From a virus (taxonomy: Duplodnaviria; Caudoviricetes), in the IMG/VR virus record IMGVR_UViG_3300049489_000130, positions 1-57,870 of that record: a DNA stretch of 57,870 bases; one strand, written 5' to 3'. Within the stretch, counting starts at the first letter, position 1; each line of letters opens with the position of its first letter. The notes under the pieces are model-generated. The model was not told the origin of the DNA, made no database searches, and saw only the letters and a list, made by a program, of their open reading frames with translations. Below, piece by piece: positions 52,300 to 54,937 of the stretch. The translations under genes were made by a program, and so were the position numbers.

Positions 52300-52677
52300 A
52301 TGGAACCTGAATACGGATTTATCACTTTTAATCGAAAGCCGTTCACTGTTGAGGCGGTCCAGATTACCGAGGAAAACATTGACGCCCTTGGGCCTCTTGT
52401 CGGTTCGGTTAAGACCAGCGGAGAAGGGGAGAAATTCATTACTCTTGATCGGCGTATTGTCCCGAACGTTCGTCGGGCATATGTTGGTTGGTGGATCACC
52501 CGAATGAATGACAACCTTCGCTGTTACTCGCCGAAGATTTTCGAGGAACAGTTTGAAATTGATGAGGGGTATGTTCCGGTCAGTCACTTGGCTACGTTGG
52601 AGACACCTACCACTACCTCATCTTCTTCCCCTAATCTCACGGTGACAACCTTGATTGTCAACGATCCTGACGCATGA
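52300..52677 (+). CDS. Conserved phage protein (KPxxVEAVQ family)
   Basis: RKPFTVEAVQ, VGWWI and F...FE motifs; AAGGA RBS. Confidence 0.7.
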   Translation: MEPEYGFITFNRKPFTVEAVQITEENIDALGPLVGSVKTSGEGEKFITLDRRIVPNVRRAYVGWWITRMNDNLRCYSPKIFEEQFEIDEGYVPVSHLATLETPTTTSSSSPNLTVTTLIVNDPDA

Positions 52678-52769
52678 GCTTCTGGATGATGAGTATTGCC
52701 GCAGTCTCGCTTGTCGGGATTGGGGTATATCTGTACGCTTCTTGGCGTATGGATAACGATGTCGACTGA
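52674..52769 (+). CDS. Small single-TM protein (31 aa)
   Basis: ATGA overlap; hydrophobic. Confidence 0.45.
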   Translation: MSFWMMSIAAVSLVGIGVYLYASWRMDNDVD

Positions 52770-53272
52770 GCGACGTTAAATAGCCTTTAGGCTCAGAGCG
52801 GTAGTGGTTCCCGAATTGCGCTGTGAGCGTGGCATGGGATTAAATGACATAGAGCGAGATCATTGTCAGCCACTACATAGACTGTGAAGGACACACAGAG
52901 CGCCATTGGGGACTGCCTGAGCGGTTCCACGCGCACCAATGGTTCGGGTAAAAAACAAACCGGTTTGGAAGCTACAGGCGGCGGGATTACCTACTCGAGG
53001 AGCCCGCATTTCTGGAAGGTGAGAGCTCCGGAATATTCAAATGACAACGTAGGTTATGAAGACTGAGTCCTGAGACCAGCACCTATGTTTACCACCTATC
53101 TTGTGGAAAACTAAACAGCATGTTCACCGAAAGCTGTTGGATAATCTAAAGTCCCTGTGGTGGCAGGGCAAATACGACGGTACTGACATCCGCAATTCCC
53201 CCTCCTGCAAAAGTCAGTTAAATCAGAGATGTTCTGTCCCCCCATACAGAGGACCTCTTAGCCTAAACGCTC
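52768..53272 (+). ncRNA. Large (about 505 nt) highly structured non-coding RNA
   Basis: 5'-3' closing helix GAGCG..TTTAGGCT.AGAG / CTCT.AGCCTAAACGCTC and more than 10 internal helices in an otherwise gene-dense genome. Confidence 0.75.
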
Positions 53273-53300
53273 TACCCAATAATAATCAAAGGAGAATAAT

Positions 53301-53531
53301 ATGGATGAGACCACTGAAACTCGTAATGTTTTGTATGAAGTATTTGTTCGTTATACAGATTATCCTGCTGATCATATTAAAAATGTCGAAGCATGGCGTT
53401 TGGAAGATGAGGTTTACTTCTTCTTTGTCAAATCATTTCTCGATCCAAAGATTCCGGCCATTCAAACTTTTTGGGTAAAAAACCCAAACGTTATTTCGAT
53501 CAATATCGTTCCCGTTAAATTTGCTGATTGA
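53301..53531 (+). CDS. Hypothetical protein
   Basis: AAGGAG RBS. Confidence 0.65.
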   Translation: MDETTETRNVLYEVFVRYTDYPADHIKNVEAWRLEDEVYFFFVKSFLDPKIPAIQTFWVKNPNVISINIVPVKFAD

Positions 53532-54714: not shown

Positions 54715-54722
54715 TGGTTCTC

Positions 54723-54748
54723 CCACCTGGGCATGTGGTAAACTGCCC
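54723..54748 (+). ncRNA. H-type pseudoknot motif, copy 1
   Basis: CCAC-CTGGGCAT-GTGG-TAAAC-TGCCC. Confidence 0.5.
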
Positions 54749-54752
54749 GTTC

Positions 54753-54824
54753 GCATCTCTAGCTCAATGGAAGAGCAGTAGGCTTTTAACCTATTGGTTC
54801 TGGGTTCGAGCCCCAGGGGATGCA
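54753..54824 (+). tRNA. tRNA-Lys (UUU)
   Basis: Cloverleaf; anticodon loop CT-TTT-AA; TTCGAG T-loop; no encoded CCA. Confidence 0.92.
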
Positions 54825-54904
54825 CTCATATGAAAGGAGAGTGGTGTCACCATGCCCTAACTTAAAGGTAATGCGCATAACTAAAGAGAGCACATGCATG
54901 ATTG

Positions 54905-54937
54905 CGATCCTGGGTATGATCGACTAAAAAACTGCCC
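54905..54937 (+). ncRNA. H-type pseudoknot motif, copy 2
   Basis: CGATC-CTGGGTAT-GATCG-ACTAAAAAAC-TGCCC. Confidence 0.5.

What the first reader, a model, noticed from the sequence alone, without database searches (positions are those of the whole stretch)
52768..53272. Large ornate non-coding RNA of about 505 nt
Seen: the ends pair (GAGCG/CGCTC, TTTAGGCT/AGCCTAAA, AGAG/CTCT). Internal helices include GTAGTGGT/GCCACTAC, TGACA/TGTCA, CTGTG/CACAG, GCCATTGG/CCAATGGT, GCGGG/CCCGC, TTCTGGA/TCCGGAA, GTAGGT/ACCTAT, AACAGC/GCTGTT, CCCTGT/GCAGGG, ACTGAC/GTCAGT and TCTGT/ACAGA. C-rich loops could form pseudoknots with GGG tracts. Established: ROOL and GOLLD are large phage- and tRNA-associated RNAs of this size class. 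I cannot assign a family, so it may be new.
Basis: partly seen in the sequence, partly recalled or inferred. Interest (0 to 1): 0.8.

Follow-up and report, generated by a model that had tools for sequence, protein, structure and literature searches.

The report
Pistol ribozyme heading new phage RNA
This gene-free 500-base stretch of an uncultured phage encodes a known self-cutting "pistol" ribozyme joined to a conserved, uncatalogued folded RNA that the ribozyme should cut free, and one loop of that RNA varies in a way that suggests two copies pair with each other.

Summary
The stretch is real, non-coding and structured, but it is not one closed 505-nt RNA. It has three parts.

- **52760-52882:** a pistol self-cleaving ribozyme (Rfam RF02679, 41.4 bits against a cut-off of 34.5). 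Its P3 is enlarged and it has A-U instead of G-U at the cleavage site.
- **52878-53089:** a member of an RNA family that Rfam 15 does not hold. I collected 95 members from phage and metagenome contigs, and 91 of 100 pattern hits have a pistol core directly upstream.
- **53090-53272:** a lineage-specific 3' extension.

The family fold runs hairpin A, hairpin B, an A-tract ending CCG, long-range stem C, GAC, hairpin D. Stem C is present in 71 of 95 members (3.6% in shuffles) with 45 different strands. A model built without the window hits it at E about 1e-11.

The loop of hairpin B switches between palindromes, the signature reported for the intermolecular kissing loops of OLE and GOLLD.

No RNA data exist. 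Cleavage, the 3' end and self-association are inferred.

The scan has noted pistol-headed phage RNAs on other DNA before, but none with this sequence.

The parts
52760..52882 (+). Pistol self-cleaving ribozyme. P1 52760-63/52772-75; pseudoknot CUGAGC 52766-71 with GCUCAG 52791-96; linker UUAAAUA 52776-82; P2 GCCU 52783-86 with AGAC 52879-82 (3 of 4 pairs, one C.A); enlarged P3 GUAGUGG 52801-07 with CCACUAC 52870-76.
   Evidence: Rfam RF02679, 41.4 bits against cut-off 34.5. The layout was corrected by homology with the Gordonia phage GTE7 pistol (48.1 bits) and with L003. Coordinates.
52877..52878 (+). Predicted cleavage site, A-U where the class consensus has G-U. The cut would leave a 2',3'-cyclic phosphate on A52877 and a 5'-OH on U52878.
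   Evidence: Position by alignment with relatives...CCACUAC GU GAAC in L003 against ...CCACUAC AU AGAC here. Among 80 family members with a parsed pistol core the purine is G in 43 and A in 36. The chemistry is established for the class (Harris 2015, PMC4604425, passages read). Cleavage here is untested.
52808..52869 (+). Insert in P3, with two hairpins (UUCCC 52808 / GGGA 52836; UGACA 52845 / UGUCA 52864).
   Evidence: Minimum-energy fold of 52758-52884, z = -2.24. P3 inserts of 12 to 186 nt occur in relatives. The insert sequence is not conserved.
52882..52898 (+). Hairpin A: CUGUG/CACAG with loop AAGGACA.
   Evidence: Present in 24 of 111 unique pistol loci collected without regard to it. 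The stems covary: CUGUG/CACAG, CGGAG/CUCCG, CGGUC/GACCG, CGGUG/CACCG.
52902..52943 (+). Hairpin B: outer stem GCCAUUGG 52902-09 with CCAAUGGU 52936-43; inner hairpin 52909-28; self-complementary CGCGC at 52930-34.
   Evidence: A closing helix of at least 7 bp occurs in 65 of 95 members against 12% of shuffles, with 67 different strands. A palindrome of at least 6 nt lies in the loop of 48 of 92 members against 15.7% of shuffles. Palindrome columns 90-91 are the top mutual-information pair of alignment A4. Pair counts.
52950..52962 (+). Single-stranded A-tract ending in CCG. Here AAAAAACAAACCG; the family consensus is AAACAAAAAACCG.
   Evidence: Nearly invariant in alignments A3 and A4. Partly by construction, because the search pattern required AAAAAACCG. 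In the 24 pistol-first loci it was seen without that requirement.
52963..53045 (+). Long-range stem C, GUUUGGA 52963-69 with UUCAAAU 53036-42, followed by the junction triplet GAC 53043-45. It encloses two hairpins (GCGGG 52981 / CCCGC 53003; UUCUGGA 53010 / UCCGGAA 53027).
   Evidence: A helix of at least 6 bp that starts right after CCG and ends right before GAC, GAT or GGC occurs in 71 of 95 members against 3.6% of shuffles. There are 45 different 5' strands and 4 to 6 pair types per position, including G.U. Forcing it in the window costs 1.8 kcal/mol (-62.6 against -64.4).
53046..53089 (+). Hairpin D: AACGUAGGU 53046-54 with ACCUAUGUU 53081-89.
   Evidence: A helix of at least 9 bp that starts within 8 nt of GAC occurs in 49 of 70 members against 7.8% of shuffles. 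It is in the window's minimum-energy fold.
53090..53272 (+). Lineage-specific 3' extension with five predicted hairpins (53092/53103, 53114/53133, 53153/53164, 53182/53213, 53233/53246). Whether it belongs to the same RNA molecule is unknown.
   Evidence: Only AAAGUCCCUG-UGGUGG-CAGGGCAA (about 53148-53171) recurs, in L206 and L304, with a compensatory change. Fold z = -1.01. No terminator-like site was found on the + strand here.
53289..53303 (+). Ribosome-binding site AAGGAG (53289-94) and start codon (53301) of the next gene, a 76-aa protein with no family match.

Best explanation
The locus is a composite RNA gene. A pistol ribozyme (52760-82) sits directly after the stop codon of a small upstream ORF. 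It is fused to a roughly 210-nt folded RNA (52878-53089) of a conserved, uncatalogued phage family, followed by a roughly 180-nt lineage-specific extension.

As the long replication-module transcript is made, the ribozyme folds and cuts between A52877 and U52878. This detaches the upstream message and gives the downstream RNA a defined 5'-hydroxyl end that starts with hairpin A.

The released RNA folds as hairpin A, hairpin B, an A-tract, stem C (closing a variable two-hairpin domain), GAC and hairpin D. It most likely acts as a folded RNA in its own right. The palindromic loop of hairpin B suggests that two copies associate through a symmetric kissing loop.

Shown: ribozyme family membership, the conserved covarying fold, and the near-universal pistol-core linkage.
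Inferred: cleavage itself, the 5'-OH end, the 3' end, self-association, and any function in trans.
For: 1. Pistol match above the curated cut-off. Its core is 95% identical over 43 nt to pistols of Gordonia phages. The pseudoknot covaries among relatives.
2. Of 100 unique hits to a pattern that specifies only hairpin A and the A-tract, 91 have a pistol-like core directly upstream and 3 lack enough upstream sequence. Of the other 6, 4 are chance hits in unrelated DNA.
3. In 16 other member loci Rfam finds only Pistol: 17 hits at E up to 0.1, in all 16 loci.
4. Features not in the search pattern are conserved with covariation:
   - stem C, 71 of 95 against 3.6%
   - hairpin B, 65 of 95 against 12%
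   - hairpin D, 49 of 70 against 7.8%
   - tool count on alignment A4: covariation score 0.300 against 0.136, 0 of 500 shuffles as high, slid registers at most 0.165
5. A covariance model built from 68 members without the window hits 52874-52970 at 53.7 bits, E 9.8e-12. The next hit in the window has E 0.19.
6. G.U pairs in stem C fix the strand.
7. There is no conserved ORF. The median longest ORF in the core is 38 aa across 71 members.
8. The first downstream genes of 58 members fall into 51 unrelated clusters, which argues against a gene-specific regulator.
9. In L213 the unit ends in a terminator-like hairpin with a U-run, followed by a fresh promoter motif. There the RNA is an end product.
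10. Hairpin B loops switch between different palindromes: UGAUCA 18, UAGCUA 6, and also UGUACA, UGGCCA, UGCGCA, UAGCGCUA. A second copy of the hexamer in the same RNA is no commoner than chance, 5 of 48 against about 5.8 expected. The same signature was used to support the intermolecular bridges of OLE and GOLLD (PMC12286853, passages read).
Against: - No RNA evidence of any kind exists for this locus.
- Folding energy is only modestly better than shuffles.
- The cleavage-site purine is A, not the class-typical G. P2 has a C.A mismatch. I found no published test of that substitution.
- The window's palindrome is only 4-5 nt (CGCGC) and sits beside an inserted hairpin. Its A-tract is a variant.
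- The 3' end is undefined. No terminator lies between the RNA and the next gene, so here the RNA may simply remain the 5' leader of the downstream message.
- Most of the family was gathered with a pattern that fixes hairpin A and the A-tract, so their conservation is partly by construction.
- My shuffles are mononucleotide and the members are related, so the counts overstate independent events.
- Hairpin B columns in A4 are only 60.5% paired, because that alignment is not structure-aware.
Confidence: 0.6

Rival explanations
1. Processing-plus-leader element. The ribozyme cuts the polycistronic transcript, and the folded RNA stays attached as a 5' leader. The leader protects the downstream message from 5'-end-dependent decay through its 5'-OH and stable structure, or loads ribosomes through the Shine-Dalgarno-like AAGGA loop of hairpin A. 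There is no separate RNA product.
For: In the window no terminator separates the RNA from the next gene, and a ribosome-binding site follows at 53289. In many members a ribosome-binding site and start codon follow the core; the median distance from GAC to the start codon is 141 nt. 13 of 87 members have the phage promoter motif just upstream of the pistol, which puts the RNA at the head of an operon. Varied downstream genes fit a generic leader.
Against: L213 ends the unit with a terminator-like hairpin before a new promoter. The distance to the start codon ranges from 59 to 575 nt. A covarying multi-helix fold of about 226 nt (median) with a palindromic loop is more than known 5' stabilisers need; that comparison is from my own knowledge.
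Confidence: 0.25
2. The pistol domain in this subfamily is catalytically dead or very slow because of A at the cleavage site and a weak P2. It serves as a structural 5' domain of one large RNA of about 500 nt.
For: A replaces the class-typical G here and in 36 of 80 relatives. P2 often carries a mismatch. P3 carries large inserts that are partly conserved.
Against: All other conserved core positions and the covarying pseudoknot are kept. The nucleophile is the 2'-OH, not the base (Harris 2015, PMC4604425). G and A forms share the same core, and members with a minimal 12-14-nt P3 exist.
Confidence: 0.1
3. One reading: one closed, ornate RNA of about 505 nt in the ROOL/GOLLD size class, with its two ends paired.
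For: The end complementarity exists (8 bp plus 5 bp) and appears in the minimum-energy fold.
Against: The pairing uses the ribozyme's P2 and pseudoknot strands and is not conserved. Rfam gives no ROOL or GOLLD match at E up to 10. The tRNA association is weak.
Confidence: 0.04

Closest known systems
Pistol self-cleaving ribozyme (Rfam RF02679; Harris et al. 2015, PMC4604425, passages read; Weinberg et al. 2015, cited from reference lists only)
   Same: P1, the six-base pseudoknot, the AAAUA linker, the UUAGGC...AGAGCG core, P2 and P3 are all present. The score is above the curated cut-off. The phage setting matches the class's reported association with bacteriophages.
   Different: It has A-U instead of G-U at the cleavage site, a C.A mismatch in P2 and a 76-nt P3 where a short hairpin is usual. 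It is fused at its 3' side to a conserved large RNA. I found no such fusion in print.
ROOL, GOLLD and OLE large ornate RNAs (Kretsch et al. 2025, PMC12286853, abstract and passages read)
   Same: It is a phage-encoded, multi-helix non-coding RNA of unknown function with no dedicated protein gene. One loop switches between different palindromes, the pattern used there to support the intermolecular kissing loops OLE L9.3 and GOLLD L21a.
   Different: There is no sequence or structure match in Rfam. The core is smaller (median 226 nt). It is rarely next to tRNA genes (4 of 95). Its 5' end is set by a ribozyme. Quaternary structure here is only inferred.
Theta (minimal HDV-like) ribozymes next to phage tRNAs (PMC10879173; only title and abstract start seen in a search listing)
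   Same: A small self-cleaving ribozyme placed beside a phage non-coding RNA gene, where it would shape that RNA's end.
   Different: A different ribozyme class and a different cargo (tRNAs). I did not read the paper beyond the listing.
Pistol followed by unannotated structured gap in Gordonia phages of the GTE7 group (NC_016166 and relatives)
   Same: The pistol core is almost identical (95% over 43 nt). It sits just after a stop codon and is followed by about 310 nt without annotated genes.
   Different: The RNA after the ribozyme has no hairpin A, A-tract or stem C, so it is not the same family.

Membership tests
Pistol ribozyme (RF02679) | Covariance-model score at or above the curated gathering score | tested here: met
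   41.4 bits against 34.5. E = 3.4e-4 over the whole window and 5.9e-6 over 1 kb.
Pistol ribozyme (RF02679) | P1 hairpin whose loop forms a pseudoknot with the internal loop | tested here: met
   CUGAGC 52766-71 is complementary to GCUCAG 52791-96. Relatives show compensatory forms, for example UUGGGC with GCCCAA and CUGUGC with GCACAG.
Pistol ribozyme (RF02679) | Conserved linker and core nucleotides (AAAUA; UUAGGC...AGAGCG) | tested here: met
   All upper-case consensus positions of the Rfam alignment are matched up to AGAGCG.
Pistol ribozyme (RF02679) | P2 helix of four pairs bracketing P3 and the cleavage site | tested here: inconclusive
   GCCU with AGAC gives 3 of 4 pairs (C.A at the second position), or 4 of 5 if the flanking A-U is counted. 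Similar mismatches are common in the subfamily.
Pistol ribozyme (RF02679) | G-U dinucleotide at the cleavage site | tested here: not met
   A52877-U52878. Among 80 subfamily members with a parsed pistol core, 43 have G and 36 have A. The Rfam alignment placed GU on 52801-02 by skipping P3, which homology with GTE7 and L003 shows to be wrong.
Pistol ribozyme (RF02679) | Mg2+-dependent self-cleavage | not testable with these tools
   Needs a bench assay.
Uncatalogued pistol-linked phage RNA family (defined here) | Match to a model of hairpin A, hairpin B region and A-tract that was built without the window | tested here: met
   Model R1 built from 68 sequences. Window 52874-52970 scores 53.7 bits, E 9.8e-12.
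Uncatalogued pistol-linked phage RNA family (defined here) | Stem C starts right after CCG and ends right before GAC; hairpin D follows | tested here: met
   GUUUGGA 52963-69 with UUCAAAU 53036-42, then GAC 53043-45. Hairpin D is 53046-54 with 53081-89.
Uncatalogued pistol-linked phage RNA family (defined here) | Self-complementary sequence in the loop of hairpin B | tested here: inconclusive
   The window has only CGCGC (4-nt palindromes CGCG and GCGC) at 52930-34, beside an inserted hairpin. 48 of 92 members have at least 6 nt.
ROOL / GOLLD / OLE | Match to the Rfam covariance models | tested here: not met
   No such hit at E up to 10 in 52500-53500, nor at gathering thresholds in the whole window.
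ROOL / GOLLD | Frequent position next to tRNA genes | tested here: not met
   4 of 95 family members have a tRNA within 900 nt downstream. The window's nearest tRNA starts at 54753.

The most novel reading that the evidence does not exclude
This is a new class of self-processing, self-associating phage RNA. A pistol ribozyme trims the 5' end of a roughly 230-430-nt RNA. That RNA then forms a symmetric homodimer, or a larger RNA-only assembly, through the palindromic kissing loop of hairpin B, perhaps helped by the invariant A-tract. This would be analogous to OLE, ROOL and GOLLD, and it would give the pistol class its first concrete biological job.
Probability: 0.35. Interest if true: 0.8.

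Novelty: new variant of a known kind. Interest (0 to 1): 0.66.

Why it matters
The review passages I read say the biological roles of the newer self-cleaving ribozyme classes are still being sought (PMC6765202, title and passages). Here the ribozyme is almost always fused to one conserved folded RNA. That gives a testable role: it makes the 5' end of a phage non-coding RNA.

The RNA itself is a well-supported new family. I collected 95 members, and it has several covarying helices. One of its loops carries the same evolutionary signature that flagged RNA-RNA bridges in OLE and GOLLD. At about 230 nt it is small enough for quick dimerisation and cryo-EM tests.

Tried and rejected
- **Known families:** Rfam for ROOL, GOLLD, OLE, tmRNA, RNase P and group I gave nothing at E up to 10. 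The weak MS2-operator, msr and snoRNA hits are far below their cut-offs and lie outside the RNA or are trivial.
- **End-to-end closing helix:** not conserved.
- **Coding:** the 60-aa (52884-53066) and 125-aa (53101-53478) ORFs have no counterpart. The median longest ORF in 71 cores is 38 aa. I ran no protein database search on them.
- **RNAalifold on the MAFFT alignment A3:** it found only hairpin A, because hairpin B is misaligned. I therefore tested hairpin B, stem C and hairpin D with register-free scripts.
- **Close homologues of the 3' extension:** only one 24-nt hairpin is shared.
- **Relatives through the polymerase gene:** 80 loci were kept of 225 relatives. Only 7 carry a pistol core downstream (2 further regex hits were false), and none is alignable beyond the first hairpin.
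- **Cultured phages:** blastn of the window's stretch finds only the pistol core in 5 Gordonia phage records. A typical family member finds nothing.
- **Bacterial genomes:** 2 pattern hits. One is a true member on a 5.3-kb contig of a Chitinophagaceae bin. The other is a chance hit in a Pseudomonas chromosome.
- **Expression:** no RNA holder listed among public runs.
- **L243 and L302:** these family cores lack a recognisable pistol, and Rfam finds nothing upstream at E up to 1.
- **Literature on a G-to-A change at the pistol cleavage site:** not found in the passages read or the listing. One paper was not held.
- **Print search for a pistol-linked large RNA:**, plus passages. Nothing was found. 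The supplements of Weinberg 2015 and 2017 (motif lists and alignments) were not opened and could bear on this.
- **Earlier notes of this scan:** they describe pistol-headed RNAs on other genomes. Sequence look-ups found no look-alike of this RNA in them.

Full report
**What is in the sequence.** The window is a 57,870-bp virus record rated 97% complete, and it holds this stretch once. Between a 31-aa ORF that ends at 52769 and a start codon with a ribosome-binding site at 53301 lie about 530 nt. They contain no convincing gene. Folding energy is only modestly better than chance. The whole stretch has z = -2.08, with 3 of 100 shuffles as good, and the opposite strand has z = -0.91. The three sub-domains give -2.24, -1.02 and -1.01. 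Thermodynamics alone therefore does not settle the matter.

**The 5' quarter is a pistol ribozyme.** Rfam reports Pistol (RF02679) at 52760-52806 with 41.4 bits against a cut-off of 34.5. No other family is near its cut-off at E up to 10 in 52500-53500.

The Rfam alignment skips P3. Homology corrects this. The core is 95% identical over 43 nt to unannotated pistols of five Gordonia phage records. In GTE7 the layout is canonical and scores 48.1 bits. An IMG/VR contig, L003, has the same P3 base (GUAGUGG...CCACUAC) followed by GU.

By that alignment the window has these elements:
- P1: 52760-63 with 52772-75
- pseudoknot: 52766-71 with 52791-96
- P2: 52783-86 with 52879-82 (3 of 4 pairs)
- P3: a 76-nt arm, 52801-76
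- cleavage dinucleotide: A52877-U52878 instead of G-U

In the subfamily defined below the purine is G in 43 and A in 36 of the 80 members with a parsed pistol core. A is therefore a common natural form, but I found no published test of it.

**The rest belongs to a conserved, uncatalogued family.** These gave 111 unique pistols. Of them, 24 are followed by the same elements as the window. The first is a 5-bp hairpin with an AAGG-type loop (hairpin A; its stems covary). Then come a variable hairpin B and a single-stranded A-tract ending in CCG.

A pattern that specifies only hairpin A and the A-tract then found 25 viral, 87 metagenome and 2 genome stretches. After removing duplicates there were 100 unique hits:
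- 91 have a pistol-like core directly upstream.
- 3 have too little upstream sequence.
- 4 are chance hits in unrelated DNA, which I dropped (L009+11101, L220, L233, L305).
- 2 (L243, L302) are true cores behind an element that Rfam does not recognise.

I also dropped one duplicate row (L274-353). That leaves 95 members.

Features that were not part of any search pattern are conserved and covary:
- **Stem C.** A helix of at least 6 bp starts exactly after CCG and ends exactly before GAC, GAT or GGC, 40-230 nt downstream. It occurs in 71 of 95 members against 3.6% of shuffles. There are 45 different 5' strands and 4-6 pair types per position, including G.U pairs that fix the strand.
- **Hairpin B.** A closing helix of at least 7 bp occurs in 65 of 95 members against 12% of shuffles.
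- **Hairpin D.** A helix of at least 9 bp just after GAC occurs in 49 of 70 members against 7.8% of shuffles. The median core length is 226 nt.

A covariance model built from 68 members without the window hits window 52874-52970 at 53.7 bits, E 9.8e-12. It gives 97 hits in the 95 source loci. On that alignment the tool count gives a covariation score of 0.300 against 0.136 in shuffles, with 0 of 500 shuffles as high and slid registers at most 0.165.

In the window, stem C is 52963-69 with 53036-42, followed by GAC 53043-45. Forcing it costs only 1.8 kcal/mol. In 16 other member loci Rfam finds nothing but Pistol.

Caveats: hairpin A and the A-tract are partly conserved by construction. My shuffles are mononucleotide. 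The members are related to one another, so the counts overstate independent events.

**What is not supported.** It has no counterpart in 57 relatives (mean longest complement 6.18 against 6.37 in shuffles).

The 3' 180 nt (53090-53272) are lineage-specific. Only the hairpin at 53153-68 and its flanks recur, in L206 and L304, with a compensatory change.

The family is rarely next to tRNA genes (4 of 95).

There is no conserved ORF (median longest 38 aa).

**Context and likely working.** The RNA follows the replication and recombination genes: a 1249-aa polymerase fusion and a single-strand-binding or annealing protein (PF24083). It precedes small genes, including a pyrimidine-dimer glycosylase (PF03013), and three tRNAs.

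The window's phage promoter motif (TCGCA..ACAT..TATAATGAGA) occurs at eight sites, none of them near the RNA. No terminator-like site flanks the RNA on its strand. Here it is therefore probably made as part of a long transcript, and the ribozyme would sever it from the upstream message.

In 13 of 87 members a TATAATGAGA promoter motif lies just upstream of the pistol. In L213 the unit ends with a terminator-like hairpin and U-run, and a new promoter follows. In that phage the RNA is an end product.

The first downstream genes of 58 members fall into 51 unrelated clusters. That argues against a gene-specific regulator.

**A clue to mechanism.** The loop of hairpin B holds a perfect palindrome of at least 6 nt in 48 of 92 members, against 15.7% of shuffles. 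Different palindromes occur: UGAUCA 18, UAGCUA 6, and also UGUACA, UGGCCA, UGCGCA and UAGCGCUA.

The central palindrome columns are the strongest mutual-information pair of the whole alignment. They show AU 43, GC 18, CG 4 and UA 4.

A second copy of the hexamer in the same RNA is no commoner than chance (5 of 48 against about 5.8 expected). Neighbouring bases in a loop cannot pair with each other.

Kretsch et al. used exactly this pattern of switching between palindromes to support the intermolecular kissing loops of OLE and GOLLD (PMC12286853, passages read). I therefore infer that the RNA self-associates.

The window itself has only CGCGC (52930-34) beside an inserted hairpin, so the inference is weaker for this member.

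**Verdict.** The locus is a known ribozyme fused to a well-supported new RNA family plus a private extension.

Cleavage, the RNA's ends and dimerisation are inferred. No RNA data could be obtained.

The main rival is that the fold stays attached as a protective or ribosome-loading leader of the downstream genes.

Earlier notes of this scan describe pistol-headed RNAs in other phages, but none shares this sequence. I found nothing in print that links pistol ribozymes to a conserved downstream RNA. The supplements of the discovery papers were not seen.

Noticed in passing
window 54721-54748 and 54904-54937; also L184, L210, L211, L219, L232, L234, L245, L257, L260, L263, L300: A small H-type pseudoknot module (stem, CUGRGCAU loop, stem, A-run, UGCYC) flanks tRNA-Lys in the window. 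It recurs downstream of the new RNA core in 11 of 95 family members. The loop-to-tail pairing covaries: GGGCA with UGCCC against GAGCA with UGCUC.
   Followed up: partly
L032, L109, L110, L131, L148, L181, L188, L200, L204, L209 and others; L003, L219, L302 downstream; L210-L212 upstream of the pistol: An accessory module, YUAC(A/U)GUCUG ... GUCAGRCC, sits inside pistol P3 in most of the 24 members that have it upstream of hairpin A. In others it lies before the pistol or at the 3' end of the RNA. It appears to be a movable RNA domain. The window has only a GUCAG remnant at 52865-69.
   Followed up: partly
L243 (about 2530-2730, - strand) and L302 (about 2780-2977): Two true family cores are preceded by a different structured element instead of a recognisable pistol. 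Rfam finds nothing there at E up to 1. It may be a variant or another ribozyme.
   Followed up: partly
window 40699, 41181, 41484, 41648, 43548, 44334, 55863, 57422: The window's repeated promoter motif (TCGCA-N-ACAT-N-TATAATGAGA) is the same motif that lies just upstream of the pistol-RNA unit in other contigs, such as L204, L207 and L211.
   Followed up: partly
L001 (Gordonia phage GTE7, NC_016166) 2494-2888 and the same gap in Amore2, HayZem and Austin: Cultured Gordonia phages carry an unannotated canonical pistol ribozyme (48.1 bits) right after a stop codon. About 310 nt of hairpin-rich, gene-free sequence of a different kind follow it.
   Followed up: partly
L279 6506-6589 and 7151-7227; L270 344-390 and 974-1024; L163 3988 and 4211: Some contigs carry two copies: two family cores about 640 nt apart in L279, and two pistols in L270 and L163.
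   Followed up: no
window 52674-52769: A 31-aa hydrophobic ORF ends with the UGA that lies in the P1 loop of the pistol, so its stop codon and the ribozyme overlap.
   Followed up: no
window 53449-53476: There is a weak match to the MS2 operator hairpin model (23.7 bits, cut-off 40) inside the 76-aa ORF. It is probably chance.
   Followed up: no
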